NCBI GenBank assembly: GCA_014595895.1
Contig: JABUKB010000002.1
Span: 152,770-184,769, forward strand
DNA from: Lysinibacillus odysseyi
Lineage (GTDB): Bacteria > Bacillota > Bacilli > Bacillales_A > Planococcaceae
Direction of reading: 5' to 3'
Length of the DNA stretch: 32,000 bases
Shown here: positions 11,797-32,000 of the stretch, piece by piece
How the letters are laid out: each line of letters opens with the position of its first letter
Position numbering within the stretch: the stretch's first letter is position 1
The notes under the pieces: generated by a model
The model's input: only the letters and a program-made list of their open reading frames with translations
Databases searched by the model: none
Told to the model about the DNA's origin: nothing
Translations under genes and position numbers: made by a program

Positions 11797-12867
11797 TTAA
11801 ATCGAAAAATCCTCAGGTACAAATACTTTCAACTGTTTTGGACGAATGTAGACAACATCCCCTTTTTGGAGCTCCAACCCATTGTACTGTTCCTTCGTGA
11901 CCTCGGCTTCCAGATATTCGTCACTGTCCTCCCGCTTTAATTCGATTTGGACAATGGGACCCAAAAGATGAATGTGCACAATGGCCGCTGCAACGGTATC
12001 ATTGCTGCCCTTTTCTTTTTCGATATGAATATCATGAGGACGTACGTAGCCCACTGCTTCCTCATGAGAACCTGAATACGTCGGTACATTTATTTCAAAC
12101 TGTCCCTGTGTCAATTTCCCGTTGTGCAGTCTGCCTTTAAATAGATTCACATTGCCCAGGAAGTCGTACACGAAAGGACTTTTCGGGTTTTCATAGACTT
12201 CATCGGGCGTTCCCACCTGCTCGATCTTGCCGTTATTCATGACGATGATTCGGTTCGCCACATCCAATGCTTCCTCTTGGTCGTGTGTAACAAAAATACT
12301 TGTCACATGAAATTCATTGTGGAGTTTACGAAGCCAGCGACGTAGCTCTTTTCTTACCTTTGCATCCAGTGCGCCAAACGGTTCATCCAGCAATAACACT
12401 TTCGGCTCCACTGCAAGGGCCCGCGCCAAGGCGACACGTTGCCGTTGCCCCCCCGACAGTTGTGAAGGGTAGCGATCCGCTAAGTTATCCAGTTTCACAA
12501 GAGCCAATAGTTCATTCACCTTTTTGGCAATCTCCTCTTTTGATGGACGTTCTTTTCTTGGACGTACCTTCAACCCATATGCGACATTATCGAAAACTGT
12601 CATGTGACGGAATAGTGCGTAATGTTGAAATACAAATCCGATTTTACGTTCTTTCGGACTGACATTGGTAATATTCTGACCATCGAATAAAATGGCTCCT
12701 TCATCCAATCCTTCTAAACCTGCTAAGATGCGTAAAAGGGTAGTTTTCCCAGAACCGGATGGACCAAGCAACGCGATGAGTTCCCCTGATTCGATGTCGA
12801 TTGAAATGTCACTTAATGCTTGAAATGACCCGAACGTTTTTGAAACATTTTGAATTTGAATACTCAT
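11797..12867 (-). CDS. cysA: sulfate/thiosulfate ABC transporter ATP-binding protein
   Basis: ATG at 12867 ([12 protein letters not shown]...) with a GGGGG SD; the ORF-track start at 12906 is rejected. Walker [10 protein letters not shown], signature [15 protein letters not shown], Walker [12 protein letters not shown]. Confidence 0.9.
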
Positions 12868-18870: not shown

Positions 18871-18912
18871 AAAAAATCGAGCGTTTAATAGCGCTCGATT
18901 TTTTGTTTTTTT
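18871..18912 (+). terminator. rho-independent terminator of cysH-sat-cysC
   Basis: Perfect 13-bp stem AAAAAATCGAGCG (18871-18883) / CGCTCGATTTTTT (18892-18904), with the T-run continuing to 18912. Confidence 0.7.
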
Positions 18913-18916
18913 CAAT

Positions 18917-18951
18917 ATAAAAAACCTCCTAATCGTTTTAATTAGAAGGTT
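18917..18951 (-). terminator. ssrA-type terminator hairpin left beyond the partial ssrA copy
   Basis: CCTCCTAAT (18925-18933) / ATTAGAAGG (18941-18949); on the minus strand it is followed by TTTTTT (complement of 18919-18924). A homologous hairpin sits downstream of the intact ssrA at 26572-26604. Confidence 0.55.
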
Positions 18952-19083
18952 AAATAAACTGCATTCAATTATATGTAATTCACCAAAAAGAAAAGACATT
19001 ATCCAATGGGTAATACACCCTTGAATAACACCTTAACTGTTAAAAACGTTGATATACCGCCATTTCTGACGACTACCTATGTA

Positions 19084-19183
19084 TGGAGACGGCGGGAGTC
19101 GAACCCGCGTCCAGAAACTCCAATACTCCAGCTTCTACGCGTGTAGTTTGCCTATTTGCAATTCGCGAGTCTTTATGCCGACA
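19084..19183. repeat. direct repeat: duplicated 3' end of ssrA (distal att site of the island)
   Basis: 19084-19171 is identical at all 88 nt to 26738-26825. 10 of the next 12 nt also match (TTTATGCCGACA vs CGTATGCCGACA). Confidence 0.92.
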
Positions 19184-19308
19184 CCTAGAACGACAAGGGT
19201 TTACACACTTTTTAGCCGCGCTCATTTCAACTATTTTTATCCACTAGGGAGTATTACATATTTACGAACTTGGTTCAAAGACCGTCGAGTTAATTGTACC
19301 ATACATAT

Positions 19309-20319
19309 TTATTTGTTAACGTGCTTATTTAACTCTTCTCGTACTATATCCCTTGTTAATTTTCCTAATACCTTCTTTTTATCATCTATGGGTTCATTAA
19401 ACAGAGAATTATGTAATTCTCTTTCATCTTTAAAAATTAAGGTATTAGAAAAAGCTAATTGTTGTAAATATACTTCGTTATAAATCAAGCCTTTTTTTAT
19501 AATATCTTGTACATAGAACTTATGAAATTCATTATAAATTTTTTCAAGATGAAATAATGTTATATTGCCCTTGATTTTTTTACCATAATACTCCTCTTTT
19601 TCATCATAATCAAAAATTATATTAAAATCTTCATTCACACCTAGTATAGTCGCTACATAATCTTCGAGACCTGAGTTATTATCAGATATAAGTTCTTCAG
19701 ATTTAACAATCTTTCTTTTTATGTTTATTCGTTCACTAATTTCTTTCTCAAATGGGGAATAATGCGTTCGCAAACTAACTGATTGTTTATTTTTTAAGTC
19801 TGAATTACAAACTTTACAAGATGGCACTAAGTTATACAACGAAAGTGCCAATAATGGATATGAGGCTTTATCAAAGAAATGGTCAAGAGTAGCACGTGTC
19901 CTTCCTTCGGAACTTTCATATATAAATGTAAACTGAGAATTACAATAAGGACATACCATTATCTCTAGTTCTTTTAAATATTTATATGCATTCCATTCTG
20001 CTGCTTTCCCAAAATATTTATATTCATCTATAAAAATTTCCAACTTATCTGAGATATATTTTTTATCTTCAACGGAAAGTGATTTTAACATCTTTTCATA
20101 TTGATTCACAGCAATATCCAATATTTCTAAATTACCAATGATAATCTCTTCTAAATTATCTAATATCCACCTAAAAACACGTTTAAGAACTACCTGTTTT
20201 TCTTCGTCAACAATCTTTTTTAACTTTTTATATAGCCTTTCATTCTTATTTTTGTTACTACCAAAAACTAATTTCTTATGACTTTCTAAAATAGTATCAT
20301 TTAAAATAAGTTCAATCAT
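19309..20319 (-). CDS. ptuB: HNH endonuclease-domain protein (PtuB-like, Septu-type partner)
   Basis: HNH motif CPYCNSQF-x14-ATLDHFFDKASYP-x9-NLVPSCKVCNSDLKNK in mid-protein. Preferred start is ATG 20319 (AGGTGA SD, complement of 20331-20336), which overlaps the upstream gene's stop as ATGATTGA. GTG 20334 (ORF-track start) is the alternative. Confidence 0.65.
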   Translation of the reverse strand: MIELILNDTILESHKKLVFGSNKNKNERLYKKLKKIVDEEKQVVLKRVFRWILDNLEEIIIGNLEILDIAVNQYEKMLKSLSVEDKKYISDKLEIFIDEYKYFGKAAEWNAYKYLKELEIMVCPYCNSQFTFIYESSEGRTRATLDHFFDKASYPLLALSLYNLVPSCKVCNSDLKNKQSVSLRTHYSPFEKEISERINIKRKIVKSEELISDNNSGLEDYVATILGVNEDFNIIFDYDEKEEYYGKKIKGNITLFHLEKIYNEFHKFYVQDIIKKGLIYNEVYLQQLAFSNTLIFKDERELHNSLFNEPIDDKKKVLGKLTRDIVREELNKHVNK

Positions 20320-22126
20320 GTGATTGGTTTTCACCTAGCTTTTTCAAATCATTTATTTTCATTTCAAAAATATCAATTAGTTCTATTAAATCTTGTGACT
20401 CAAATAACTTTAATTTACTTTTGTATATGTCATAAACCTTATTTCTTAAGATTGGTTCTCCTATTAAGTCAATAAATTTGATTATACTCTCTCTCTCTTT
20501 ATAAACTTTTGTTGGAGAAGCTTCTAAAAGCCATCTAATACAACTATTTATTCTTTCTTTTGCAAATTGCCCTATTAAACCTTCTTTAATGAAAAAAGAA
20601 TTTGATAGTAACTCACTTATATTAGCTGCAAAAGTTCTTGGACTTCCTTCTAGTTCTTTTATAGTATCATTATTTATTTCTTTTTCTTTTGTTAGGAAAG
20701 TAACATTAGTATTGGGAATATCAGATAATACGAATGGTGAATGTGTAGTAAGAATAACTTGTATATTTCCTTCAAAAATAACATCTACCATCTTAACAAA
20801 GTAATATAACCAATCCTTTTGTAACTGAGGGTGAAAGTATAAATCTCCTTCATCAATTAGCAATAAAAAGGAATCATATTCCCCTGGTTTTATTAACTTT
20901 TCTATTACATAAGCAAAACGAGAAAATAAAGTAAGAAAACTAAATTGACCACTACTTAATTCCAACCATGAAAATTTTAAAAACTCATAATCTAAAAACT
21001 CATCAATATATAAATTTATAAATTCTTTTGAATTAGATAATGTACCATCAATTTCTATGTATTCATACATCAAGTCTTCTCCAGTTAATAAATCCACACT
21101 ATAATCCGTTCGTAATTTTATTCTTAAATTTGAAAATAAATTATAGAGATTGAGATATCTATTTGCTAATACATCTACTTCTTTCATAAATTTTAAGCTG
21201 GCAAATAGTTCACTGGCTGATTCATTTATTTTATGCTTTATTAAATTCATAAAGTCTTTTTCACTTTTAGCATTTTTTATAGCTGATGATAAAATTTCTC
21301 GTAATTCTTCAAGAGAAATACCAATACTTGATTCTATAAGTATATTTTCAACTTCTAACATAAAACTTTCAATAAAGTTCAATTGGAAAACCTTTTTAAA
21401 ACTTGTACTTTTTTTAAGATTATTACTTCTAAATATATTTATTTCATAGTTATTTAGGTATCTATAATCTTTTCTTTTAGCGTTTACCTTGTTTTCAATT
21501 TTAATTCTTGAAGGTAACTCTATTATTCTATTGATATCATATTTATTTTTATATTTATTAACAAAGAAAATTTGTTTCTGTAATTCTTCATGTATAAATT
21601 CATTTACATTTTCATGTCTACTTAATAATGCATTTGTAGATATATTTACTATTTCATCAGTATCTTCTGAGAAATTGCTATTTAAATATCTTACATCAAA
21701 TATATTTGAAAAGAATATTGTTAAATAATTTGGGTGGTAAAAGTTTCTTGTTTCTATGTTGAATGTTTTATTCCCTAGAAATTCAATTTTCATATCATTT
21801 GAAAATCTGTAGTCTTTATATATTTTTTTATTATTCGAATAAATTATCAGATAATCATTTAATCCAGAATCGGTCATAAGGTTCACCAAAAAATCTAATA
21901 TAGTTGATTTACCCGAACCATTTTCCCCAACAAATGCAGATATATCAAAATTTCCAATACCACTATTTTTCAAACTATTTTTAAAAAAGTCCGATATGTA
22001 AATATCGTTCTCTTTTACTGTCAATGAATCATTCCCATCAAAATGAAAATTGTACCTACTTCCAAAATTAGCTTGAAAATTATTTATTGCTTTATATTTT
22101 TTAAACCATATAAATAGAATTTGCAT
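20312..22126 (-). CDS. ptuA: ABC/SMC-type ATPase (AAA_15/AAA_21-like; PtuA-like)
   Basis: 604 aa with GGAGGAG SD. Walker A GENGSGKST, ABC signature LSSGQ, Walker B LLLIDEGDLYFHP, H-loop ILTTHSP. A long, poorly conserved insert separates the N- and C-terminal ATPase halves. Confidence 0.7.
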   Translation of the reverse strand: MQILFIWFKKYKAINNFQANFGSRYNFHFDGNDSLTVKENDIYISDFFKNSLKNSGIGNFDISAFVGENGSGKSTILDFLVNLMTDSGLNDYLIIYSNNKKIYKDYRFSNDMKIEFLGNKTFNIETRNFYHPNYLTIFFSNIFDVRYLNSNFSEDTDEIVNISTNALLSRHENVNEFIHEELQKQIFFVNKYKNKYDINRIIELPSRIKIENKVNAKRKDYRYLNNYEINIFRSNNLKKSTSFKKVFQLNFIESFMLEVENILIESSIGISLEELREILSSAIKNAKSEKDFMNLIKHKINESASELFASLKFMKEVDVLANRYLNLYNLFSNLRIKLRTDYSVDLLTGEDLMYEYIEIDGTLSNSKEFINLYIDEFLDYEFLKFSWLELSSGQFSFLTLFSRFAYVIEKLIKPGEYDSFLLLIDEGDLYFHPQLQKDWLYYFVKMVDVIFEGNIQVILTTHSPFVLSDIPNTNVTFLTKEKEINNDTIKELEGSPRTFAANISELLSNSFFIKEGLIGQFAKERINSCIRWLLEASPTKVYKERESIIKFIDLIGEPILRNKVYDIYKSKLKLFESQDLIELIDIFEMKINDLKKLGENQSHD

Positions 22127-22624
22127 AGTTAATTACTCCTCCTAATAGAACCATTATACATTATTTCCCACGCACGAATTGTGCACAAAAAAATCACTGT
22201 GTATATTTTACATTCACTTATCCATAGTACAGCTCCCCCTATCCCCTAGGGTAGGGCTTATGCTATATTTCATTTGAACAATTTTGTATAATTACTAACT
22301 CAATTACATCTTGTATTAGTAGAACTATTTTATTTTTCAGTTACCATTTGCATTGCCTGAGATTTACCATTCAGTATCCCCCTTACCTTGATTCCTATTT
22401 GTTTAGTTGCCATGACTTTTAGTATTTCTTCTATATAGAGAACGCATGGATACTCTGATATCTTTTGAATATGGTTATGACAGGAGTTAAATACTTTTAT
22501 TGACAGTATATTGTTTAAAACTCTAATGGTAATTTAATTTATAACATTTTTACCAAAATTAATTAAAATATTATCTTTATTAATATATTATAAAGATAAA
22601 TATTTATTTAGGAGGAGAAATACT

Positions 22625-23269
22625 ATGATTTACAATACACATTCATTTAGGTATGGATTGGACTTATTCCAAACTAATCCACAGTTTACAGAGCTTTGGA
22701 ATGAAATTCAGTCTGTACTAGATAACATTACTGATCAGGATTTAATAAATTATTATAATGCTAATTCTAGAACATCAAAGAAAAGCCTATCCGAAGCTAT
22801 AAATACATTGATTGATGAACGATTAGTAGCATTACAATGGACTCGTCAAAGTCCAATATTTAATAATTCTGAGTATAGACCTACAAGTAGAAATAGATGG
22901 TGGACACTTGATTTCACAAAAGAATCTTTAGCGGTAGAAGTAGCATTTAATCATGGTGAAGCTGTAGCTTGGAATCTAATTAAACCTGTACTTTCGAGTG
23001 AATTAAATCATGTTGAAAAAGCAATTCAAACTCATGCCGGAGTAATAATTACGGCAAAAGATTCACTTAAACGTGCAGGGAATTTTGATAGTTCCATTGG
23101 CACTTACGAAAAATTCCTACAATACTTAGCGCCTTTTAGAAATATTTTATCGGTACCAATGGTAATTATCGGTCTAGATGCACCTGAAACATTTATTATT
23201 GACCGAACAACAAAAGAAGTTAGTTATATAGAACCACAATTAGAAACCCAATATAACCTATTTGATTAA
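22625..23269 (+). CDS. BglII/BamHI-family type II restriction endonuclease-like protein (214 aa), no cognate methyltransferase nearby
   Basis: GGAGGAG SD 7 nt upstream. As far as I recall BglII, similarity runs end to end: N-terminal NPQ..W.EI, WTLDFTKESLAVEVAF vs BglII TDIDFGKRDTLVEVQF (D-x8-E-x-Q/A catalytic spacing), and AGVIITAK / VPMVIIGL vs VAIIITKG / VPIRLVGL. Confidence 0.55.
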   Translation: MIYNTHSFRYGLDLFQTNPQFTELWNEIQSVLDNITDQDLINYYNANSRTSKKSLSEAINTLIDERLVALQWTRQSPIFNNSEYRPTSRNRWWTLDFTKESLAVEVAFNHGEAVAWNLIKPVLSSELNHVEKAIQTHAGVIITAKDSLKRAGNFDSSIGTYEKFLQYLAPFRNILSVPMVIIGLDAPETFIIDRTTKEVSYIEPQLETQYNLFD

Positions 23270-23271
23270 GT

Positions 23272-23330
23272 AAATAAAAATAAGCTGCCACTAGTTATAT
23301 AGACTAATGACAGCTTCTTTTATATTTTGG
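23272..23330. terminator. bidirectional terminator between the convergent nuclease genes
   Basis: Imperfect 14-bp stem (23282-23295 / 23301-23316) flanked by an A-run on the left and CTTTTATATTTT on the right. Confidence 0.5.
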
Positions 23331-24333
23331 CTCTATAAACAGTAGGCCGCAAGTTAAGTGAGTTTTCAAGGTTACCTTCTACTCTAAAAAACTTCCCTGA
23401 ATTTGATTTATGGTCATAATGATAGACTCTATACAATTCATAGTTACTTGGATACTCTGAAGAAAATGCCAGTTCATTTGCAGTTATTATAAAAGGTGTA
23501 TTAATGCCACCTTTTGTAGTTTTAACTTCAATATATAATGATGTGTTATCATCTTTAATTAGCTCTATATCGTATCCTGCGCCATCTCCTTCTATGACAG
23601 AAGTATGAATGACTTTATTTACATCATATCCCAGATTATTTATTAGATAATCTACAACCAGTAATTCCCCTTTTAGACCTAGTTCACGATTCCTTTCACC
23701 ATTCTCAGCATAATCAGGTTTGGAAGTATGAAAGTTTCTTGATGTATTACTTGTATCTAGCACCGGATTGGGCCTTTGGGTTTCAGTTAAATGGTCACTG
23801 GTAATATCATCATTTTGATTAATTAATGTATTTAGTGTTAAGTCCATTCTAGCTAATATACTAGAAGGAGGGATTTCCCAATCCACAATCTGCCATTTAA
23901 AATAAACCGGCTGTTCTCTTGTAATATCATGTGTTACATAGGCTAACCTTCCTAAATAAGTAAAAGGTTCAACTTGTTTAGTTAAATTATTTTTTTTCTT
24001 AGTTCTTAAGAAAAGGTATATATTATCTACTAAATGGTTATGGTTAATCAGTTGTAAAATTATCTCATTATTTAAAGTCTGTTTAGGTTGTGATTGCCAA
24101 GTCAATATACCATCTTCAGTAATACTTTCATCGAAATCATGCCCTAGTTGTTTTTGGCCAAATGTAACAAAAAACACAAAATCTTTTTTCCTTTTAGGAA
24201 TCTTAACAAGTCCATGTATTCCCCAAGTCCCTGATCCAGTTGTAAAAGAGGTTACACCATCAAATATCTTGTACACATCTTCTCTGGAATATTGTTCGTA
24301 TAACTTTAATGGTTTAACTGACAAAATCTTCAC
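23320..24333 (-). CDS. fusion protein: N-terminal DUF3427-like domain + C-terminal DUF3883-like PD-(D/E)xK nuclease domain (candidate modification-dependent nuclease)
   Basis: GTG start at 24333 with AGGAAAGG upstream. N-terminal half: YSREDVYKIF..FVFFVTFGQ..ILTWQSQPKQ..IYLFLRTKK..FTYLGRL..VYFKWQIVDWEIP matches my recollection of DUF3427. C-terminal half: LGLKGELLVVDYL..GAGYDIELIK..LYIEVKTTKG..FIITANELAFS..YELYRVY matches DUF3883 (D..EVK nuclease motif). Confidence 0.6.
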   Translation of the reverse strand: MKILSVKPLKLYEQYSREDVYKIFDGVTSFTTGSGTWGIHGLVKIPKRKKDFVFFVTFGQKQLGHDFDESITEDGILTWQSQPKQTLNNEIILQLINHNHLVDNIYLFLRTKKKNNLTKQVEPFTYLGRLAYVTHDITREQPVYFKWQIVDWEIPPSSILARMDLTLNTLINQNDDITSDHLTETQRPNPVLDTSNTSRNFHTSKPDYAENGERNRELGLKGELLVVDYLINNLGYDVNKVIHTSVIEGDGAGYDIELIKDDNTSLYIEVKTTKGGINTPFIITANELAFSSEYPSNYELYRVYHYDHKSNSGKFFRVEGNLENSLNLRPTVYRAKI

Positions 24334-24381
24334 CCTTTCCTATCTTCCCAATCACTATTTATCGTTCAGCGTCCTCTTATT

Positions 24382-24390
24382 ATTATAACA
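24382..24390 (-). promoter_or_regulatory. extended -10 element (TGTTATAAT) upstream of the DUF3427-DUF3883 gene
   Basis: The complement of 24382-24390 reads TGTTATAAT (TGnTATAAT consensus), about 50 nt upstream of the GTG start. Confidence 0.35.
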
Positions 24391-24436
24391 ACTTAAATAT
24401 CCAGTAAAAGTAGTAATAAGTACATTTGAATAAAAT

Positions 24437-24952
24437 TTATTCTAAACAATCAATAACTTCTTCGTACTCAGTATCTTCAAAGATATAAGTATCTGAATCG
24501 ACAAAAACTTTATCTACATAACAATTAACAGGATTATATACACACATACTATGATTTCCTCCCTTATTCAACTTCACAGCTTTTAATAATTTTTTACCAC
24601 CAAATTCCATATTAACTAATGATGTATTAACGGTTTTCCCCACCTGTTGCCTAGAAATACCCACTAACTCACCAATCTTTTCTTGTGAAATCCATGAATA
24701 TCCATCGTTATCAGTAAAACTTGCTATTACTAATAGAATTTTTAGAGCTGTGGGGGAAAGCTCCTTCAATCCCCCACTAGCTATATAATCCTTATCTAAA
24801 GAAACAAATACTTTGAATTTTTCCTGATCATTCTTATCTTGTGTACAGTATAATTTAATGAAAGGTTGTTGTTCTATTTCATCTTTTGTATATGTACTTG
24901 AAATATATTGTTTAGCTTTATTAATTAATTTATTATCAATCTTGTTAGCCAC
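24437..24952 (-). CDS. winged-helix/HTH DNA-binding protein (171 aa), island regulator or replication-initiator-like
   Basis: GTG start at 24952 with a GGAGG SD 8 nt upstream. LSPTALKILLVIASFTDNDGYSWISQEKIGELVGISRQQVGKTV is a typical wHTH segment of phage/plasmid Rep- or DnaD-like proteins. Acidic C-terminus. Confidence 0.5.
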   Translation of the reverse strand: MANKIDNKLINKAKQYISSTYTKDEIEQQPFIKLYCTQDKNDQEKFKVFVSLDKDYIASGGLKELSPTALKILLVIASFTDNDGYSWISQEKIGELVGISRQQVGKTVNTSLVNMEFGGKKLLKAVKLNKGGNHSMCVYNPVNCYVDKVFVDSDTYIFEDTEYEEVIDCLE

Positions 24953-24968
24953 TCTAAATTCCTCCTGT

Positions 24969-25304
24969 TTAATTACTAACTGCTAATTCAGAATAAATAA
25001 TGTAAACTGTATCACCTAACAATTGTTTTTCATCAACAATTTCCAAAACTGATACCCCAAACAATGTTTTATTAAGTAACTTATCATTTATAATTTCTAC
25101 TAAAGCATCTTCTTTCATTTTAGTAACTGCTAACAGGCTTTCTACATCTAAAATTCCATATCCATTATCATCACAATTTTTTAATATAGCTTTTGATACT
25201 GTAATACACTCATCTTCTAAATATTTATGTACAATACAATCATCAAAAAATTTCTCTAAAAATTCCTCATGTGTGTAACCTACATAATAATAATTTAATC
25301 CCAT
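24969..25304 (-). CDS. hypothetical acidic protein (111 aa)
   Basis: ATG at 25304 with an AGGAG SD. Its stop lies inside the SD region of the downstream wHTH gene, suggesting an operon. No family recognised. Confidence 0.45.
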   Translation of the reverse strand: MGLNYYYVGYTHEEFLEKFFDDCIVHKYLEDECITVSKAILKNCDDNGYGILDVESLLAVTKMKEDALVEIINDKLLNKTLFGVSVLEIVDEKQLLGDTVYIIYSELAVSN

Positions 25305-25361
25305 TTTGTAACAACTCCTAAATTTATTTATTGTGTTATTTTGATGCTTGGGCTTTATAAT

Positions 25362-25392
25362 CTTTATACTCTTTCAACCCTTTATACTCTTT
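25362..25392. repeat. 13-nt direct repeat x2 (CTTTATACTCTTT) with an 18-nt period
   Basis: Exact copies at 25362-25374 and 25380-25392, plus a degenerate third copy GCTTTATAATC at 25352-25362. They sit 58-90 nt upstream of the 111-aa ORF (minus strand). Confidence 0.7.
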
Positions 25393-25480
25393 AGTGTCAA
25401 CTTTCCTTTCCCCCTGACATAGCTATAATTAGATAATGATTTAAAAGTGTGACATCCAAATAAAAAAATATTGTAGAAAT

Positions 25481-25507
25481 AAAAAAGAACCTAACTGATT
25501 AGCTAGG
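25481..25507 (-). terminator. putative terminator of the integrase gene
   Basis: On the minus strand CCTAGCT-AATC-AGTTAGG forms a 7-bp stem with one G-U pair, followed by TTCTTTTTTA. Confidence 0.4.
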
Positions 25508-25596
25508 CTCTAGGGTATCCCCAGGGGGATGGGATGTCTCATTCTGATACAAAACAAGGCATTATTTATTTTTTGTAGTCTCGGATATTCTCCTGA

Positions 25597-26571
25597 TCAT
25601 AGATAATCGCGTAAATTAGTTGCTACTTCATTAACATCTAAATCAAGGTATTGTGTTGTTACCTCTAAATTTGAATGTCCTAATGCTTTTGAAATTAATG
25701 CAATACTTGCCCCCTTACTATACAAATTCTTTGCATATGCGCGGCGAATTGCGTGAGCATTGATATTCTCTAAATTGAACCGCTTTGCATACTTGTGTAG
25801 CTGCTTTGAAATAGCACAATTAGAGGATTTACTATTATTCATCGGTGAGCCATTTTGAGTAATAAATATATAGTGGTTATCCATATCAAAATGAGCGCGG
25901 ATGCCATTGTTTAATTGAATAAGTAGCTTTAACATTTCTACTACCTCCTCATCAATCGGGAGCTTTAAAAACTTATGATTCTTTAATGTAGAACCATCTA
26001 GGTTCAAACAAAAATTTTCAAAGTCGATATGACGTTCTCTCAGCTCTCCTAATGTACGAATACGGATACCTGTCTTATACATTAATTTAATAGCGGCGGC
26101 ATCCCTAAAACCAATAAAGGTTGTTTGGTCAATTAACTGTAAAAGCTTTTCTATATCAGATTGCCGCGCTCCCTTTTTTACTTCCTTATCAATTTTAATT
26201 TGAATGTTGCTCCAGAAACGGTCTTTTACCCATCCATTGTTATAAAACTTGCTCAGTACCGCTTTAATCGACTTCAAGCGTATTAGTTTAGTCGCGGGAG
26301 TAACCGCTAGCACATCTAAGTAATGATAGAGCTTATCCAAGTTAATATCCTCTACATACTCAATACGGCAAACTCCAACAAACTGTTTAAAAATATATTC
26401 ATAACTTTCAATTGTGCGTGGTCTATTTCCAGCGATACGCATTTGATTAAATACTGTATCAAGTGCATAACTAATCTGCATACAATCATCTCTTGCATCC
26501 TTACTATTGGATAGAACAACTACATCACCATTTACCGCGAATATACCATGTTTTCGCTTTCTATTTACCAT
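25597..26571 (-). CDS. int: tyrosine-type site-specific integrase
   Basis: 324 aa. Catalytic motifs TGIRIRTLGEL (Arg), HAIRRAYAKNL (His-x-x-Arg) and LGHSNLEVTTQYL (His...Tyr). Adjacent to the intact ssrA. Confidence 0.9.
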   Translation of the reverse strand: MVNRKRKHGIFAVNGDVVVLSNSKDARDDCMQISYALDTVFNQMRIAGNRPRTIESYEYIFKQFVGVCRIEYVEDINLDKLYHYLDVLAVTPATKLIRLKSIKAVLSKFYNNGWVKDRFWSNIQIKIDKEVKKGARQSDIEKLLQLIDQTTFIGFRDAAAIKLMYKTGIRIRTLGELRERHIDFENFCLNLDGSTLKNHKFLKLPIDEEVVEMLKLLIQLNNGIRAHFDMDNHYIFITQNGSPMNNSKSSNCAISKQLHKYAKRFNLENINAHAIRRAYAKNLYSKGASIALISKALGHSNLEVTTQYLDLDVNEVATNLRDYL

Positions 26572-26604
26572 AGAAAAAACCTCCTAATATGTTTTATTAG
26601 AAGG
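26572..26604 (-). terminator. terminator of the intact ssrA; its 3' arm contains the integrase SD
   Basis: CCTCCTAAT (26580-26588) / ATTAGAAGG (26596-26604). The minus strand reads ...ATTAGGAGGTTTTTTCTATG, so AGGAGG forms the hairpin's 3' arm and the U-tract is the spacer to the int ATG (26571). Confidence 0.55.
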
Positions 26605-26737
26605 TCTTTGAATAAGCTCAAAATATGTAATTTCCATAGGGATAAGAAAAGGGATATTCAACAAGAGTTCAACCCCCGTTCAATATCCCTAGTCTGTTAA
26701 AACGTTGAAATGACTGCATTTACAGCCACTTATGTAA

Positions 26738-26837
26738 TGGAGACGGCGGGAGTCGAACCCGCGTCCAGAAACTCCAATACTCCAGCTTCTACGCGTGTAG
26801 TTTGCCTATTTGCAATTCGCGAGTCCGTATGCCGACA
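26738..26837. repeat. direct repeat: 3' end of the intact ssrA (proximal att site)
   Basis: Partner of 19084-19183 (88 nt identical, then 10/12). Confidence 0.92.
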
Positions 26838-26966
26838 AACAGGCGTCTAGATCGCTAGCTTGGAAATCTCTTGACGGTGACTCAAGCGGCACCACCGACC
26901 GTATCCCACTAAAGTTGGGCCCGACGTACTCTACATGGGCGATAGAGAGGCCGAGCGCTTAAGAGC

Positions 26967-26999
26967 TTACGCTGCTAAAGCTAAGTTTTGTTGTTTGCC
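26967..26999 (-). other. tmRNA tag-peptide reading frame, (A)GKQQNLALAA-stop
   Basis: The minus strand reads GGC AAA CAA CAA AAC TTA GCT TTA GCA GCG TAA directly after AACT. This is the same context as the resume codon in B. subtilis ssrA. Confidence 0.85.
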
Positions 27000-27233
27000 A
27001 GTTATTATATAACTTCCGTTGTTGACGAAGACGAGACCTCCGACGCGCAACCAGAGCTTGAACCATCCCTGTCGAATCCGTAACGTCCCCGAGTATAAAA
27101 CCCGAGTAAAGTTCGGTTAAGCAAATGCTTATAAAGTGTACCGTATGAGTAGATACACACTGGCAATCTGTATACTCATTATATGTCAGATTAGGTGAAA
27201 CATCAAGTAATTGCTACGATGCAAATCTTGCCA

Positions 27234-27314: not shown

Positions 27315-28370
27315 CTACCAGGCTACTGCACGCTTTTTGCGAATCCATGCAATGACGATAACGAAGATTAACACAAACCCTAAGTACCCCATTGTGGAAT
27401 ATACTTTACCCACTAAGTTTGTAAAACCTACTAAACTAGCAGCAAAACCTAATAAGCCGACAATCATAACAGCCGGTTTAAAGGCTTTTGATTTTGGTGG
27501 GAAGAAACGAACTGTAAAGGTATAGAACATCCCTACTGCCGTATTGTACATCATCCCCAGAAGAGCGAAAGACATTAAGACGCCAATGAAGGGATGGATT
27601 TGATTCGCTAACTCTAGTGTCGGCATATCTACCCCGCCGATCACATCGATTTTTACGAACATCGTAATATTGATGAGAATAATGAGTGCTCCCAGGAGGA
27701 TACCACCAATGATTCCACCACGACCTGCTACTTTCCGGTCTTTTTCCTCGCCACCCATGATGATGAGTAAAGCCGCGCCTGCAGCGATATTGTATGATAC
27801 ATATAAAATCGATCCTAACAGCCAGTGATCAGCAGCGGAATTTTGTTCTTTGGCTAACGCATCTGCCTGGGACCATGAAATATCCATTGTAAATAACGAG
27901 TAAATTAAAATAATAAAAATAATCGCCAATAAATATGGGGTAACCACTGCGATAATATTAAGAATGTTTTTTAAGTCCAGGAGTAACGTACTGATTACGA
28001 ACGCCACCATGATGATGCTCCCTACCATTGACGGCATACCGAACATTTGGCTGAATGTAGAGCCCGCTCCCGCAAACATCACGACAGCTACGCCAAATAA
28101 GAAAAACGTAATGATAAAATCTAAAATGGTACCAAGATAACGACCACCGATTTTGTAAATTACACCCTTATGCGAAGATTGTTGTAAATCGGAACCGAGC
28201 TGCGCTAAAGTCATTCCTAAAAAGGCAAAGACAAATGCTGCAACAATCCCCCCCATTAGCCCCATTACTCCGAAGCTTGTAAAATACTGCATGATTTCTT
28301 GACCTGAGGCAAATCCTGCACCAACAATCAGACCTACAAAGGCACCGCCTATTTGTAAACTTTTTCTCAT
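27315..28370 (-). CDS. YkvI-family membrane transporter (putative amino-acid carrier)
   Basis: 351-aa polytopic protein. The N-terminus GAFVGLIVGAGFASGQEIMQYF matches the YkvI signature. Confidence 0.7.
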   Translation of the reverse strand: MRKSLQIGGAFVGLIVGAGFASGQEIMQYFTSFGVMGLMGGIVAAFVFAFLGMTLAQLGSDLQQSSHKGVIYKIGGRYLGTILDFIITFFLFGVAVVMFAGAGSTFSQMFGMPSMVGSIIMVAFVISTLLLDLKNILNIIAVVTPYLLAIIFIILIYSLFTMDISWSQADALAKEQNSAADHWLLGSILYVSYNIAAGAALLIIMGGEEKDRKVAGRGGIIGGILLGALIILINITMFVKIDVIGGVDMPTLELANQIHPFIGVLMSFALLGMMYNTAVGMFYTFTVRFFPPKSKAFKPAVMIVGLLGFAASLVGFTNLVGKVYSTMGYLGFVLIFVIVIAWIRKKRAVAW

Positions 28371-28381
28371 CTTACACCTAC

Positions 28382-29488
28382 CTATTTATATATCTTTTTG
28401 TCTACCGTATAGGACTCGACTGTGTCCCTATTCACTTCATATCCAATACCTGCTGTTTGCGGCACTTCAATATAACCATCATTTACGATCACTTCTGGCT
28501 CAATAATATCCTTTTCCCAGTAGCGACTCGAGCCGGCTGTATCACCTGGCAATGTGAAATTTGATAAAGTTGTTAAAGCCACATTGTGTGCCCGTCCAAT
28601 ACCGGACTCTAGCATACCGCCACACCAGACTGGGATTCCTTTTGCTTCACAGTAATCATGAATTCTCTTCGCTTCTGTTAAGCCGCCTACACGACCAATT
28701 TTAATGTTGATAATTTTTGTGGATCCCAACTCGATTGCTTTTCGGGCATCCTCCAGTGAATGAATGCTTTCATCCAAACAAATTGGTGTATCCATTTGTT
28801 TTTGCAATGTTGCGTGGTCGATGATGTCATCCGACGCAAGCGGCTGCTCGACCATTGTTAGGTTAAACGCATCTAACTGCTTTAATAAGGCTGCATCTTC
28901 TAAACGGTATGCTGAGTTCGCGTCCGCCATGATGGCGACATCTGGGAAATTTTCACGTAATGTGCGCATCACGTCTATATCCCAGCCTGGCTTGATTTTT
29001 ACTTTGATACGTTTATAGCCTTCCTTGACATAGCCATCGACCAACGCCACTAAATCATCGATTGATTTTTGAATGCCAATACTAATGCCCACCTCGATTT
29101 TGTCCTTTGTGCCTCCAAGAGCTGCTGCTAAGGATTGGTTTGTTTGTTGGGCATAGATATCCCAAATAGCCCCTTCGATTGTGGATTTGGCCATATTGTT
29201 TTTACGAATCGTCTCAAACAGTTTATTTACTTCATCTGGATGATTGATTTCTTTATGTAAAATAAGCGGAATTAAGTAGTCTTCTAGCATGTGCCAGTTT
29301 GTTTTTAATGTCTCCTCGTTATACCAAGGTGAGTGAAAGGCTACCGATTCTCCCCATCCGACTGTGCCGGATTCATCCTTTGCTTCTAATAGCAAAAAGT
29401 CTCGGGTTGTAAAGGTACCAAAGCTTGTAGTGAACGGTGCTTTCAGTTCCATCTGTAAGTGACGGATTGTGATTTCTGTAATTTTCAT
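28382..29488 (-). CDS. enolase-superfamily N-succinylamino-acid racemase / o-succinylbenzoate synthase family
   Basis: 368 aa. KxK motif IKVKIKPG; metal ligands [20 protein letters not shown]; second catalytic Lys in [10 protein letters not shown]. No men genes nearby, but GNAT and M20 partners are present, which favours a racemase role. Confidence 0.8.
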
Positions 29489-30300
29489 GATGTTTTTCCT
29501 CCAAGAGCTAACATTTCTTTTTTGACAAAAATATATTCATTCCAGCTTTCTCGTTGCTGAAGACGAACAGCTGCATAGCCTGCTGTAAACAGGGCTGTGC
29601 ATGCTTTTCTGACCGCAAGACGCCAATGCATGGCGTCTTGCTGACTGCGTGTTTTGAGAGATTGAAAATCGATTGGTACTGGTAATGCATAAACATCTTC
29701 CGTTAAATTACCAAAAGATTCAGACGATAATGTGCACAATCCATCTTCTCCCTGCACAAATGTACCGAGATAAACAGGCTGTTCGATTGTCGGTTGTATA
29801 TTATGCTCTACATAAGGTGCCTTTAGATGCCAATGCACTTCAAAACGGTCAGAAGGTAATCCTTTATTAAAGCCGTCTTGCATCTCACCGTAACAATTTT
29901 CAATATAGGTATCACAAATACCGTTCAGTTTTGTTAAATTTAAATAGCCGTTACGTGTTTCAAGCGGGTCGTATGTCCATACCATTAAGTCGTAGCCTTT
30001 CGCCAGTGCGATTTCGCGTTGTGCTTGTTTTAAACGTTCGCCAATTTGTTGGGAACGGTAAGCTTCATCGATCCCGAGCATATGCGAACACAAATAGCTT
30101 TTGCCTTGCTTATAAGCCCCAAAGCCGTAACTAAAGCCGACTAATGTTTCCCCGTCATAAGCACCTACCATAATCCCCCCGTGCTTCACTGCTGTTAACG
30201 TTTGGTGAGTTGGCAATGGGGGCATTTGCCACACCTTTTCTTCTAACACTTGAACTTGTTTCATTTCCTCTAACGTTGTCAGTTCTTTTATAAAGACCAT
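29485..30300 (-). CDS. GNAT-family acyltransferase (candidate D-amino-acid N-succinyltransferase)
   Basis: 271 aa. ATGA start/stop overlap with the racemase gene and TAATG overlap with the amidohydrolase gene. Acyl-CoA-binding-like [11 protein letters not shown]. Functional call rests on context. Confidence 0.6.
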
Positions 30301-31412
30301 TATTTATCGCTTCTTTCTATATACTGTAGAGCACCGACCAATGCTTTCGAAATAATATTTACCCCTACCGCCAGTTGTGTGCGGTTGAAGGTCATCTTAG
30401 GATGATGTAGACCCGGTGTAACCCCACATCCTAAACCAAGCATAGTAGTTTTTAATTGAGGCCTTGTATAGGCGTAAAAGTGAAAATCTTCGCCTCCCGG
30501 TGTGATAATACCTGCTGTGCAGTGGTCTTCACCGACTGTGTCGATAATGGCTTGGCGCATGATCGCTTTTGCTTCTTCATCGACTTGTGCTGCTACAATA
30601 TGTGCGCCTACTTGTGTGGTAATAGTCGCACCGTATAGTGTACTGACCGCAGCAATGGCTTTTTCTAATCCAGTTGTCAGATCGGCCATCGTTTTGTTTG
30701 TCTGCGCACGTAAATCTAAACTGAAGGTTGCCGTCCCTGGAATAATATTTGTCGATGCACCGCCTGCTTGAATTTGTGTCATTTTGATTGAGGCACTTTC
30801 TGAGGGACTCACCCAGATACGTTTGAGTGCATCCACAAGCGCTGCTGCTACTTCAATGACATTGACACCCTGCTCTGGTCTCGCTCCATGTGCTTCTACG
30901 CCTGTAATGGTACCATTCATCAGTTTCGCTGCGCCGTGATATAAAGCAGGCGCATGATCACCATCAGCTAGCTCTACAAGCGGGCGTACATGAACGCCGA
31001 ATAAAAACTGCAAATCATCCACTACTCCGCGCTCAACAAATGCTTTGGCCCCTGCAGCCTTTTCCTCTGCCGGCTGAAATAAAATACGTACCGCCCCTGG
31101 TAATAATTGCTGTTGTAACGCAAATATGACACCGAGCGCCATTGTCATATGACCGTCATGTCCACATGAATGATTGGCTTGAAATACCCCGTCTACCTCT
31201 TGCCACAGTGCATCGATATCTGTTCGAAATCCAACGCGTGGTGTGCCTTCCCCGATATCTACATAAAGACCAGGTATATCATCAAACAGAATAGGCTGTA
31301 GCCTCATCTGTCGTAGCTGGTCGGCTATATAAGCGGTTGTCTGGAATTCCTGCCAGCTTACCTCGGGATTTTCATGTAAGTATGTAAATATTTCCTGAAG
31401 ACGTTGCTCCAT
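30300..31412 (-). CDS. M20-family amidohydrolase (N-acyl-L-amino-acid deacylase type)
   Basis: 370 aa. HSCGHDGH metal-binding motif and overall M20D/hippurate-hydrolase-like sequence. Confidence 0.8.
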   Translation of the reverse strand: MEQRLQEIFTYLHENPEVSWQEFQTTAYIADQLRQMRLQPILFDDIPGLYVDIGEGTPRVGFRTDIDALWQEVDGVFQANHSCGHDGHMTMALGVIFALQQQLLPGAVRILFQPAEEKAAGAKAFVERGVVDDLQFLFGVHVRPLVELADGDHAPALYHGAAKLMNGTITGVEAHGARPEQGVNVIEVAAALVDALKRIWVSPSESASIKMTQIQAGGASTNIIPGTATFSLDLRAQTNKTMADLTTGLEKAIAAVSTLYGATITTQVGAHIVAAQVDEEAKAIMRQAIIDTVGEDHCTAGIITPGGEDFHFYAYTRPQLKTTMLGLGCGVTPGLHHPKMTFNRTQLAVGVNIISKALVGALQYIERSDK

Positions 31413-31419
31413 CTTTTTT

Positions 31420-32000
31420 TCAACTCCATCGATCTACAAAAAAACTATTTTGAAAATCATCAAATTTTTCGCGTTGTTCATTATAATACGCAACATCATG
31501 CGACATCATGCCCACAACGAGGGTATTCATAAAAGCCATCAGGGCCGGCATCATATCAATAGTGGAAAGTTCCGTCTGTTGCAATACAAAAGTGGAATCA
31601 GCATAAGGTAAAATCGGTGCCACTTTTGAATCGGTAATCGCAACGATATAAGCACCTTGCTCTTGGAACATTTTTGCTAAAACAATGGGTTCCTTATGAT
31701 AACGGTGTAATGAGACTACGATTACCAAAGAGTCCTTATCGATTTCCTGTAATGTGCGAATATGAGCTCCTGTATGTCCCTCTACTACTTGTACATGGGA
31801 TCGTAAAATATTTAACGTAAATTGTAGCCACTGCGAGGCAAATTTTGAGGCTCCGGCACCAATTAAATAAATCTTGGAGGCAGTATGCATACGAGCTGTC
31901 ACTTCCTCAAATTGTTCTGGGTTAATTTGCTGTGCGATATCGGTGATTTGATGGCTGACTTGTCCCATTACTTTTTCAGCGAGCTGCCGTTCTTTAAATA
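31420..32000 (-). CDS. RpiR/MurR-family regulator; SIS domain visible, N-terminal HTH lies beyond the window
   Basis: The frame stays open to the window end (FKERQLAEKV precedes the listed Met). SIS-domain pattern IYLIGAGASKFASQW...VVSLHRY...IVAITDS. Stop is 7 nt before the M20 gene start. Confidence 0.7.
   Translation of the reverse strand, partial: FKERQLAEKVMGQVSHQITDIAQQINPEQFEEVTARMHTASKIYLIGAGASKFASQWLQFTLNILRSHVQVVEGHTGAHIRTLQEIDKDSLVIVVSLHRYHKEPIVLAKMFQEQGAYIVAITDSKVAPILPYADSTFVLQQTELSTIDMMPALMAFMNTLVVGMMSHDVAYYNEQREKFDDFQNSFFVDRWS

What the first reader, a model, noticed from the sequence alone, without database searches (positions are those of the whole stretch)
19084..26837. AT-rich 7.6-kb integrase island inserted in the 3' end of tmRNA (ssrA), bounded by an 88-bp perfect repeat
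The last 88 nt of ssrA (26738-26825) recur without a mismatch at 19084-19171, and 10 of the next 12 nt also agree. Between the copies lie 8 ORFs that are visibly far more AT-rich than the flanking cys and racemase operons (composition not computed). The ORF next to the intact ssrA is a tyrosine recombinase. This is the classical footprint of site-specific insertion into the ssrA 3' end with regeneration of the gene. There are no capsid, terminase, tail or conjugation genes. Apart from the int gene and a small wHTH module, the cargo consists of ATPase and nuclease genes. It is therefore a compact cargo (defence) island, and the place to look for anything new in this window.
Basis: partly seen in the sequence, partly recalled or inferred. 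Interest (0 to 1): 0.7.

Follow-up and report, generated by a model that had tools for sequence, protein, structure and literature searches.

The report
Small defence island inserted at tmRNA gene
A 7.65-kb AT-rich mobile island sits in the 3' end of the tmRNA gene of a Ureibacillus/Lysinibacillus-like bacterium and carries three nuclease-based anti-phage modules; it is a clean but ordinary member of a known kind of element.

Summary
An intact tmRNA gene lies at 26738-27090 (-). Its last ~100 nt recur at 19084-19183, with 88 nt perfect. The DNA between the copies has about 28% GC, against 38-43% in the flanks. A complete tyrosine integrase abuts ssrA.

The cargo has three nuclease-based modules:
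- A Septu-type ATPase+HNH pair (PADLOC PDC-M62).
- A DUF3427-DUF3883 "McaZI-group" nuclease, predicted to be modification-dependent.
- A BglII/BstYI-family endonuclease with no methyltransferase.

There are also a rare HTH_36 protein and a 111-aa ORFan. No phage, satellite or conjugation genes were found.

More than 500 homologous integrases occur in the Lysinibacillus/Ureibacillus/Sporosarcina group. Every context examined puts them directly after ssrA. The islands are small (4.8-8.4 kb), bounded by repeats, often in tandem, and carry different, mostly defence, cargo. The relatives share the ssrA fragment, a 165-bp arm with three hairpins (the integrase ribosome-binding site sits in a terminator stem), a distal arm, and a 30-nt motif inverted at both ends.

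DNA left of the distal repeat (18905-19083) looks like the scar of an older island. No empty-site allele was found, because no conspecific genome was available.

Verdict: a real ssrA integrative defence island, and a new member of a known kind.

The parts
26738..27090 (-). Intact tmRNA gene (ssrA). Its last ~100 nt (26738-26837) are the attL copy of the repeat.
   Evidence: ARAGORN; Rfam RF00023 at 195 bits; promoter-like TTGATG-17-TATAAT at 27206-27178.
19084..19183 (-). attR: a ~100-nt fragment of the ssrA 3' end. 88 nt are perfect (19084-19171), followed by 2 mismatches and then 10 matches.
   Evidence: Rfam gives a partial tmRNA hit of 33 bits. The fragment starts at the same ssrA position (GTCGGCA) as in L108, L119 and L150.
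26572..26737 (-). Int-proximal arm (P') between the ssrA 3' end and the int ATG. It has three conserved hairpins. Hairpin 1 is at 26645-26695 and is followed by UUUUCUU. Hairpin 2 is at ~26575-26609 and is followed by U6 and the int ATG; the int GGAGG sits in its 3' stem.
   Evidence: Alignments A2, A5 and A6 with compensatory changes. Folding gives -26.1 kcal/mol (z -5.5) and -15.5 kcal/mol (z -4.6). No sigma-70-like promoter is predicted on this strand in the arm.
25597..26571 (-). Tyrosine integrase, 324 aa.
   Evidence: Pfam PF00589 4e-29. NCBIfam XerA-like 4e-37, below the equivalog cut-off. PHROG integrase. R170, K197, H273, R276, H299 and Y308 are invariant in a 22-sequence alignment. 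More than 500 homologs.
25486..25511 (-). Intrinsic-terminator-like hairpin after int.
24969..25304 (-). 111-aa ORFan, the first gene of the p111-HTH36-nuclease transcription unit. Function unknown.
   Evidence: No Pfam, PHROG, PADLOC or NCBIfam hit. Only 3 homologs among 1.8 billion representatives. No plasmid match.
24437..24952 (-). HTH_36 winged-helix protein, 171 aa. A probable island backbone gene (regulator, or a relic of a replication initiator).
   Evidence: Pfam HTH_36 1e-8. PHROG DNA-binding and replication-initiator N-terminal hits. Only 9 homologs. The 74% homolog in L150 again follows an int of the same family inside an ssrA'-bounded island.
23320..24333 (-). DUF3427 (N-terminal) + DUF3883/NOV_C PD-(D/E)xK (C-terminal) nuclease, 337 aa. 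This is the McaZI-group architecture, a predicted modification-dependent (type IV-like) restriction enzyme.
   Evidence: Pfam NOV_C 1e-17 and DUF3427 2e-13. PADLOC PDC-S36 1.5e-37 over the C-terminal half. GYD...IEVK motif in the translation. Architecture and size match McaZI, BwiMMI and EfaL9I in PMC6765204. Plasmid homologs lie in defence neighbourhoods.
23282..23316 (-). Terminator-like hairpin between the convergent nuclease genes.
22625..23269 (+). BglII/BstYI-family type II restriction endonuclease homolog, 214 aa, with no methyltransferase in the island.
   Evidence: Pfam Endonuc-BglII 1.9e-12. Aligns to the BstYI active-site segment. There are four plasmid homologs, two with an adjacent dcm. 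The family-wide motif is LDF-x8-EV[AG]FNH.
22127..22624 (.). 498-bp divergent intergenic region between the PtuA-like and BglII-like genes. No gene or structured RNA was detected.
   Evidence: Only one 32-aa ORF. No Rfam hit. Folding z-score -0.5.
20312..22126 (-). Septu-type ABC/AAA_21 ATPase (PDC-M62A, PtuA-like), 604 aa.
   Evidence: PADLOC PDLC04734 2.7e-176, full length. Pfam AAA_21 and AAA_15. Walker A GENGSGKS in the translation.
19309..20334 (-). HNH nuclease partner (PDC-M62B, PtuB-like). The probable start is the ATG at 20319.
   Evidence: PADLOC PDLC04742 8e-127, aligned from residue 6. Pfam HNH match is weak, 0.0019. CxxC...DH...CxxC in the translation.
19184..19308 (.). Distal arm (P), conserved among related islands.
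   Evidence: Alignment A7 with L150, L119, L108 and L133.
19253..19283 (-). Arm motif GGTCTTTGAA-N-AAATATGTAAT, one of two inverted copies. The partner is at 26603-26631 (+).
   Evidence: Two matches in the window, 0 expected. The same inverted pair flanks the L133 and L150 islands.
26603..26631 (+). Second, inverted copy of the arm motif, inside the P' arm.
18905..19083 (-). B': a diverged (~65% identical) copy of the P' arm lying outside the island. Both hairpins are kept, part of the arm motif is kept, the int ATG is replaced by ATT, and no int follows. It is probably the scar of an older island and served as the ssrA terminator region before this insertion.
   Evidence: (D3, D16). Hairpins fold at -17.5 and -12.6 kcal/mol, z about -3.8. 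Terminator scan hit at 18951-18923.

Best explanation
The segment 19084-26737 is an integrative genomic island. An island-encoded tyrosine recombinase inserted it by site-specific recombination into the 3' end of ssrA.

**The attachment site.** The island's attP is about 390 bp. It comprises:
- a ~125-bp distal arm;
- a ~100-nt copy of the ssrA 3' end;
- a ~165-bp int-proximal arm.

Crossover inside the shared ssrA segment leaves a complete ssrA at the int side. That ssrA is now followed by terminator hairpins supplied by the island. A dead ssrA' fragment remains at the far side.

**Integrase expression (inferred).** The int start codon lies directly after the second hairpin and its U-run. The int ribosome-binding site is paired in that stem, and no promoter is predicted in the arm. 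Int is therefore probably made at a low level from ssrA read-through transcripts.

**Cargo.** The cargo is three independent nuclease-based defence modules:
- a Septu-type ATPase+HNH operon;
- a McaZI-type DUF3427-PD-(D/E)xK enzyme, expected to attack cytosine-modified phage DNA;
- a BglII/BstYI-type endonuclease without its methylase, whose activity status is unknown.

**Backbone.** A small backbone gene (HTH_36) and an ORFan lie between int and the cargo.

**Family.** The element belongs to a family of 5-8-kb islands in Lysinibacillus/Ureibacillus-group bacteria. Members share int and both arms but swap defence cargo, and they pile up in tandem at ssrA.

**Shown versus inferred.** Shown: the anatomy, the homologies, the family-wide location, and conservation of the arms and hairpins. 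Inferred: the crossover mechanism, int regulation, present-day mobility and anti-phage activity.
For: - **Boundaries and composition:**
- **Integrase:** intact, with the conserved R-K-H-R-H-Y set.
- **Location across the family:** int homologs at 75-83% identity lie immediately after ssrA in U. composti, L. sphaericus and L. fusiformis, and only int and the arm are shared.
- **Repeat-bounded relatives:**
  - L119: 8.4 kb, with a PifA-like NTPase and an Mrr-type nuclease.
  - L133: 4.8 kb.
  - L150: about 5 kb, with int', HTH36 and an ABC-3C system.
- **Tandem arrays at ssrA:**
- **Conserved arms and hairpins:**
- **Inverted arm motif:**
- **Cargo identities:**
- **Literature:** PDC-M62 is called Septu by DefenseFinder (PMC11811056). 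The DUF3427-DUF3883 enzymes bind 5mC/5hmC and restrict T4gt (PMC6765204). ssrA-specific islands with direct repeats and tandem accretion are an established class (PMC3146451).
Against: - No empty attB allele and no excised circle were observed. No conspecific genome was available.
- No recognisable excisionase is present.
- The exact crossover point cannot be placed inside 88 identical nucleotides.
- The NCBIfam PtuA and PtuB equivalog thresholds are far from met: 49.6 vs 500 bits and 16.4 vs 150 bits. The ATPase+HNH pair is therefore a Septu-like subtype and not canonical PtuAB.
- McaZI-group enzymes showed little cleavage in vitro (PMC6765204).
- The restriction endonuclease without a methylase may be inactive.
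- Read-through expression of int is inferred only from the absence of a predicted promoter and the hairpin geometry.
Confidence: 0.76

Rival explanations
1. The island is a decayed prophage or a phage satellite (PICI-like). It would have kept only int, a regulator/replication stub and accessory genes.
For: - The HTH_36 protein hits PHROG replication-initiator N-termini.
- Distant int relatives (41-64% identity) sit at the ends of IMG/VR predicted proviruses of 13-58 kb.
Against: - No structural, packaging, lysis, primase or satellite hallmark genes.
- No DNA or int match in 50,697 phage records.
- Four independent relatives are equally small (4.8-8.4 kb) and have both arms intact. They look like complete units and not random deletion products.
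Confidence: 0.07
2. The island is a fixed, no longer mobile relic. Under this view, cargo differences between relatives arise by homologous recombination. DNA taken up by transformation would recombine across the conserved flanks (ssrA + arm + int on one side, distal arm + ssrA' on the other), without int-mediated excision and integration.
For: - The conserved flanks are long enough for homologous exchange: about 1.2 kb on one side and about 225 bp on the other.
- No excisionase is present.
- Truncated or frameshifted ints exist in L150 and L119 while their repeats persist.
- Int-less arm remnants occur in L077 and in the window's B'.
Against: - The window int is full length with all catalytic residues.
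- The 88-nt repeat has no mismatch although the attR copy is under no selection. This argues for a recent recombinase-type event.
- Inverted arm motifs conserved at both ends are what a recombinase-bound attP requires.
Confidence: 0.15
3. The repeat is an assembly or duplication artefact, and the AT-rich block is ordinary strain-specific DNA.
For: A ~100-nt repeat could in principle cause mis-joins in a short-read assembly. No read data are available.
Against: - The same ssrA, arm, int, cargo and ssrA' layout, with the same fragment start point, appears in unrelated NCBI, ENA, Logan and JGI assemblies.
- The two copies have different, family-conserved flanks.
Confidence: 0.02

Closest known systems
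ssrA (tmRNA gene)-specific genomic islands. Examples are the elements surveyed in Williams' 'Traffic at the tmRNA gene' (from my own knowledge) and the Dehalococcoides ssrA-GIs (PMC3146451).
   Same: - Integration into the 3' end of the single-copy ssrA.
- A direct repeat of the ssrA 3' end at the far boundary.
- The integrase module lies next to ssrA.
- Tandem accretion of several islands.
- No self-transfer genes.
   Different: - The recombinase here is a 324-aa tyrosine integrase. Dehalococcoides uses the serine recombinase DsiB.
- The repeat is ~100 nt (88 perfect) against 20 bp.
- The cargo is anti-phage nucleases, not reductive dehalogenases.
- The integration module is minimal: int, with or without HTH_36.
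Integrase-bearing defence islands at tRNA/tmRNA hot spots. Examples include pipolins as defence platforms (PMC11551731; only the abstract seen) and the E. coli and Pseudomonas defence hot spots (from my own knowledge).
   Same: A conserved integration backbone with exchangeable defence cargo, sited at an RNA-gene hot spot.
   Different: - Much smaller.
- No pPolB or other replication hallmark.
- Different host clade (Lysinibacillus/Ureibacillus group).
- The arms carry ssrA terminators and an inverted arm motif.
Septu (PtuA/PtuB), PADLOC candidate subtype PDC-M62.
   Same: A two-gene operon of an ABC-type ATPase and an HNH nuclease. Both match the PDC-M62 profiles over their full length. DefenseFinder calls such loci Septu (PMC11811056).
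   Different: Far below the NCBIfam equivalog thresholds for retron-Ec78-type PtuA and PtuB. No retron RT or ncRNA is nearby.
McaZI / BwiMMI / EfaL9I group of DUF3427-DUF3883 enzymes (PMC6765204).
   Same: - N-terminal DUF3427 and C-terminal PD-(D/E)xK (DUF3883/NOV_C).
- 337 aa, against 323-338 aa for the characterised members.
- Located in a defence island, next to a restriction endonuclease whose Pfam family (BglII/BstYI) cuts sites with a GATC core.
   Different: - The Pfam DUF3427 match covers only profile positions 125-248.
- The neighbouring restriction endonuclease is BglII/BstYI-type, not Sau3AI/MutH-type.
- The C5 methyltransferase that accompanies BwiMMI and EfaL9I is absent.

Membership tests
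ssrA-targeting integrative island (tyrosine-recombinase type) | A direct repeat of the ssrA 3' end bounds the element, with an intact ssrA at one junction | tested here: met
ssrA-targeting integrative island (tyrosine-recombinase type) | An integrase gene adjacent to ssrA, with catalytic residues intact | tested here: met
ssrA-targeting integrative island (tyrosine-recombinase type) | Homologous integrases occupy the same site in other genomes, with different cargo | tested here: met
ssrA-targeting integrative island (tyrosine-recombinase type) | An empty attB allele in related strains | tested here: inconclusive
   No conspecific genome was retrievable. Relatives have cysC away from ssrA. The int-less loci L077 and L114 still carry variable or defence DNA after ssrA.
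ssrA-targeting integrative island (tyrosine-recombinase type) | Excision to a circular attP form | not testable with these tools
   Needs reads or PCR
Septu (PtuA/PtuB) | An ATPase with an ABC-type P-loop plus an adjacent HNH nuclease in one operon | tested here: met
   The two genes lie within a few nt of each other at about 20312-20319.
Septu (PtuA/PtuB) | Reaches the curated NCBIfam PtuA/PtuB equivalog scores | tested here: not met
   49.6 vs 500 bits and 16.4 vs 150 bits. Filed as the Septu-like subtype PDC-M62 and not as canonical PtuAB.
McaZI-group modification-dependent endonuclease | N-terminal DUF3427 sensing domain fused to a C-terminal DUF3883 PD-(D/E)xK domain, about 320-340 aa, with no helicase | tested here: met
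McaZI-group modification-dependent endonuclease | Binding or restriction of 5mC/5hmC DNA | not testable with these tools
   Needs an experiment
Type II restriction-modification system (BglII/BstYI family) | Endonuclease of the BglII/BstYI fold with the catalytic D...E | tested here: met
   D and E are conserved. The third residue Q is A or G throughout this subfamily.
Type II restriction-modification system (BglII/BstYI family) | A cognate methyltransferase encoded alongside | tested here: not met
   No methyltransferase domain in any island ORF. The 498-bp gap is too short and non-coding. Two of four plasmid homologs do have a dcm.
Prophage / phage satellite (PICI) | Capsid, terminase, tail, lysis or satellite packaging/interference genes | tested here: not met
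ICE / IME | Relaxase, coupling protein, T4SS or oriT | tested here: not met
   No such Pfam or PHROG hit. oriT was not searched.

The most novel reading that the evidence does not exclude
The island family may be a dedicated docking platform for defence cassettes in Lysinibacillus/Ureibacillus-group bacteria. The platform would consist of a minimal module: int, a ~390-bp attP with inverted arm motifs, and sometimes HTH_36. This module supplies ssrA with new terminators. It also hides the int ribosome-binding site inside one of them, so that integrase synthesis would be slaved to read-through of the highly transcribed tmRNA gene. Cassettes would be swapped and stacked at this site much as in an integron. 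A second point concerns the two convergent nucleases. A methylase-less BglII-type endonuclease sits beside a 5mC-sensing McaZI-type enzyme. This could mean that the methylase was lost because it is incompatible with its neighbour.
Probability: 0.2. Interest if true: 0.55.

Novelty: new member of a known kind. Interest (0 to 1): 0.3.

Why it matters
- It documents a compact, well-delimited family of ssrA-specific islands that shuttle anti-phage genes in a little-studied group of soil and compost Bacillales.
- It defines the family's attP anatomy: both arms, the inverted motif, and the terminator hairpins with the int ribosome-binding site inside.
- It supplies three candidate defence modules in a 6-kb package that could be tested directly.
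- It does not challenge current understanding. tmRNA genes are long known as integration hot spots, and defence genes are known to ride on such islands.

Tried and rejected
**Exact-protein look-ups.** Look-ups of three window proteins found nothing. The 100%-identical entries P0001, P0121 and P0241 exist, but their contig could not be retrieved this way.

**Search for an empty site.**
Synteny ends exactly at the cysC stop and no tmRNA lies within 10 kb, so this route failed.
- YkvI relatives gave one informative locus, L077. The others have the operon elsewhere.
- L114 first looked like an empty site. Its downstream genes turned out to be a protein kinase, GmrSD and DUF4007, so I do not call it empty.

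**Other searches that led nowhere.**
- The single-sequence int scan of viral contigs found nothing.
- The whole island has no near-identical DNA in plasmids or phages.
- No int homolog occurs in sequenced phages.
- The 498-bp gap was tested for a hidden RNA or structure, with negative results.
- p111 is unrelated to the 111-aa ORF of L108.
- p111 and HTH36 have no plasmid homologs.

**Tool loss.** The Python machine was lost, so no further scripted comparisons were possible.

**Idea rejected.** I considered that ssrA plus the island had been transposed as a unit, because neither flank matched the relatives at first. L077 shows smpB, the five-gene operon and ssrA as a native arrangement in the closest relative, so I rejected this.

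Full report
**1. The observation**

ARAGORN and Rfam agree on one intact tmRNA gene at 26738-27090 on the minus strand. Its last ~100 nt recur at 19084-19183. The repeat is 88 identical nt, then two mismatches, then ten identical nt. A 31-mer from it occurs exactly twice in the window, with none expected by chance.

GC is 0.23-0.32 (mean 0.28) from 19.5 to 25.5 kb. The cys-operon flank averages 0.375 and the right flank 0.43.

**2. Host and flanks**

CysC is 96% identical to that of Lysinibacillus antri and 87-92% identical to those of Ureibacillus xyleni, U. endophyticus and L. telephonicus. Nucleotide identity is only about 80%, so these are different species.

In five relatives, homology stops exactly at the cysC stop codon and no tmRNA lies within 10 kb.

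The right flank is an operon: a SIS regulator, an M20 amidohydrolase, a 271-aa protein, an MR_MLE racemase-type enzyme and a YkvI membrane protein. In the closest available relative, metagenome contig L077 (YkvI 82% identical), the order is secG, est, rnr, smpB, that operon, then ssrA. The window's right flank is therefore native, and smpB should lie just beyond position 32000.

Other relatives have smpB directly next to ssrA, or carry the operon elsewhere.

**3. The recombinase and its family**

The 324-aa ORF beside ssrA is a tyrosine recombinase. More than 500 homologs at 64-86% identity occur in Lysinibacillus, Ureibacillus, Sporosarcina, Psychrobacillus, Rummeliibacillus, Viridibacillus, Planococcus and Exiguobacterium. 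The catalytic R, K, H-x-x-R, H and Y residues are invariant.

In U. composti, L. sphaericus and L. fusiformis the homolog sits immediately after smpB-ssrA and is followed by unrelated genes. By tblastn, only int is shared with the window island.

A metagenome scan with a 25-nt ssrA motif gave 36 loci. Notable ones:
- **L119** has two ssrA-3' copies 8.4 kb apart. They enclose a frameshifted int of this family, a PifA-like KAP NTPase and an Mrr-type nuclease.
- **L133** has a 4.8-kb island.
- **L108, L119, L129 and L133** show a second island type, with a 381-408-aa integrase stacked behind the repeat.
- **One contig** carries three ssrA-3' copies.

The closest relative of the window's backbone is L150, a Solibacillus MAG. 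Its layout is a 22-nt ssrA' junction, the arm, an int truncated after residue 155, an HTH_36 gene (74% identical), a Metallophos/MC6/DUF2326 system, and a ~100-nt ssrA'. A type I R-M island precedes it.

**4. attP anatomy**

*Int-proximal arm.* The 165 bp between the ssrA 3' end and the int ATG are 85-95% conserved among family members. They contain three hairpins with some compensatory changes.
- Hairpin 1 folds at -26.1 kcal/mol (z -5.5) and is followed by UUUUCUU.
- Hairpin 2 folds at -15.5 kcal/mol (z -4.6) and is followed by U6 and then the int ATG. The GGAGG of int lies in its 3' stem.
- The hairpin-2 arrangement persists even in a 64%-identical int (L091).
- No sigma-70-like promoter is predicted in the arm on that strand.

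From this I infer that the island supplies the terminators of the regenerated ssrA. I also infer that int is expressed weakly from read-through transcripts with an occluded ribosome-binding site.

*Distal arm.* The distal 125 bp (19184-19308) are likewise conserved in L150, L119, L108 and L133.

*Inverted motif.* A 30-nt motif, GGTCTTTGAA-N-AAATATGTAAT, occurs once in each arm in inverted orientation. In the window the copies are at 19253-19283 (-) and 26603-26631 (+), with 0 expected by chance. The same inverted pair flanks the L133 and L150 islands. These are probably binding sites for Int or an accessory protein.

*Start of the ssrA fragment.* The ssrA fragment starts at the same position (GTCGGCA) in all these islands.

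**5. A relic outside the island**

Left of the attR copy, 18905-19083 is about 65% identical to the int-proximal arm over its whole length.
- Both hairpins are kept. Hairpin 1 has a largely different sequence that still pairs (-17.5 and -12.6 kcal/mol).
- Part of the arm motif (ATATGTAATT) is kept.
- The int ATG is replaced by ATT, and the cysC terminator follows at once.

Because the arm motif is specific to the island, I read this as the scar of an earlier island of the same broad family. That scar then served as the ssrA terminator region. I put this at about 0.7. The alternative is that it is the ancestral terminator region from which the island arm was derived. No third ssrA fragment exists in the window.

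**6. Cargo**

*(a) 20312-22126 and 19309-20334.* These match PADLOC PDC-M62A and PDC-M62B over their full length (2.7e-176 and 8e-127). They carry AAA_21/AAA_15 and HNH domains. Such loci are called Septu by DefenseFinder (PMC11811056). They fall far below the NCBIfam PtuA/PtuB equivalog cut-offs.

*(b) 23320-24333.* This ORF has an N-terminal DUF3427 and a C-terminal NOV_C/DUF3883 PD-(D/E)xK domain.
- This is the McaZI/BwiMMI/EfaL9I architecture of Lutz et al. 2019.
- Those enzymes bind 5mC/5hmC DNA, restrict T4gt, are toxic in Dcm+ E. coli, cleave poorly in vitro and occur in defence islands (PMC6765204).
- Plasmid homologs at 44-48% identity lie in defence neighbourhoods.

*(c) 22625-23269.* This is a BglII/BstYI-family endonuclease.
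- It has four plasmid homologs at 46-64% identity. Two have an adjacent dcm gene and two have none.
- The island encodes no methyltransferase.
- RGATCY sites exist in the host DNA of the window: 11 observed against 22.7 ± 5 expected. GATC is also depleted: 61 observed against 95.9 ± 10 expected.
- The enzyme therefore has another specificity, is protected from elsewhere in the genome, or is inactive.

*(d) Backbone genes.* HTH_36 (171 aa) has only nine homologs. The 111-aa ORF has three homologs in 1.8 billion representatives.

*Transcription units.* Terminator-like hairpins after int (25511-25486) and after the McaZI-like gene (23316-23282) suggest four units: int; p111-HTH36-nuclease; BglII-like; and PtuA/B-like. 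The 498-bp divergent intergenic region has no detectable RNA family or unusual structure.

**7. Comparison and verdict**

ssrA is a classical integration hot spot with direct repeats and tandem accretion (PMC3146451, and Williams' survey, from my own knowledge). Defence cargo on integrase-bearing islands is also well known.

This element meets the defining features that could be tested. The exception is the empty-site or excision evidence, which could not be obtained here.

All three cargo modules belong to described or catalogued families. The features specific to this family are:
- the conserved two-arm attP with an inverted motif;
- the terminators supplied to ssrA;
- the int ribosome-binding site buried in a terminator stem;
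- the cargo swapping seen between the window and L150.

These are tidy but incremental. I file the element as a new member of a known kind and score interest at about 0.3.

Noticed in passing
window 18905-19083: A diverged (~65% identical) copy of the island's int-proximal arm lies outside the island, between attR and the cysC terminator. Both hairpins are preserved but there is no int. It is probably the scar of an older island.
   Followed up: yes
window 19253-19283 (-) and 26603-26631 (+); also L133 329-359 / 4847-4879 and L150 7443-7473 / 12358-12390: A 30-nt motif, GGTCTTTGAA-N-AAATATGTAAT, is present once in each island arm in inverted orientation and is conserved across related islands. 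It is a candidate recombinase or accessory-protein binding site.
   Followed up: partly
window 26566-26612 (-): The integrase GGAGG ribosome-binding site is paired in the 3' stem of a terminator-like hairpin. That hairpin is followed by U6 and then the ATG. The arrangement is conserved even at 64% int identity (L091 61-100).
   Followed up: partly
window 27315-32000; L077 5399-11675: ssrA is separated from smpB by a five-gene operon: SIS regulator, M20 amidohydrolase, a 271-aa protein, an MR_MLE enzyme and YkvI. This is seen in the window and in its closest relative L077. Other relatives have smpB-ssrA adjacent, or the operon elsewhere.
   Followed up: yes
window 18756/18757; L001-L004, L011: Synteny with five related species ends exactly at the cysC stop codon, and none has ssrA within 10 kb. 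The cys-ssrA adjacency is specific to this lineage.
   Followed up: partly
window 22625-23269 and 23320-24333: A BglII/BstYI-type endonuclease with no methyltransferase lies tail-to-tail with a nuclease of the 5mC/5hmC-sensing McaZI type. Homologs of the endonuclease on two plasmids do have an adjacent dcm.
   Followed up: partly
whole window: GATC is under-represented: 61 observed against 95.9 ± 10 expected. RGATCY is also low: 11 observed against 22.7 ± 5 expected. No RGATCY site lies inside the island.
   Followed up: no
window 22226-22256 and 25510-25545: Two short GC-rich quasi-palindromes (…ATCCCCTAGGGTAGGG… and …GGGTATCCCCAGGGGGATGGG…) stand out in AT-rich intergenic DNA. One is upstream of the PtuA-like gene and one is just after int. 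Their significance is unknown.
   Followed up: no
L150 7300-7340 and 12455-12556: This is a tandem array in a Solibacillus MAG. A type I R-M island ends in a junction that keeps only ~22 nt of the ssrA 3' end, while the next island ends in a ~100-nt fragment. This hints that the common crossover region is the last ~22 nt.
   Followed up: partly
L127, L120, L142 (contig Ga0213821_1000234): Three copies of the ssrA 3' motif lie on one 38.7-kb metagenome contig, at roughly contig positions 52, 12661 and 18341. This indicates at least two stacked islands.
   Followed up: no
L114 792-5610: An int-less ssrA locus is followed by its own terminator. After that come a GATTTT-repeat ORF, a Ser/Thr kinase, a GmrSD-type enzyme and a DUF4007 protein. 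The DNA downstream of ssrA is defence-rich even without a recognisable integrase.
   Followed up: partly
window 24969-25304: The 111-aa ORF has only three homologs among 1.8 billion cluster representatives and matches no profile. It is co-transcribed with HTH_36 and the McaZI-like nuclease.
   Followed up: partly
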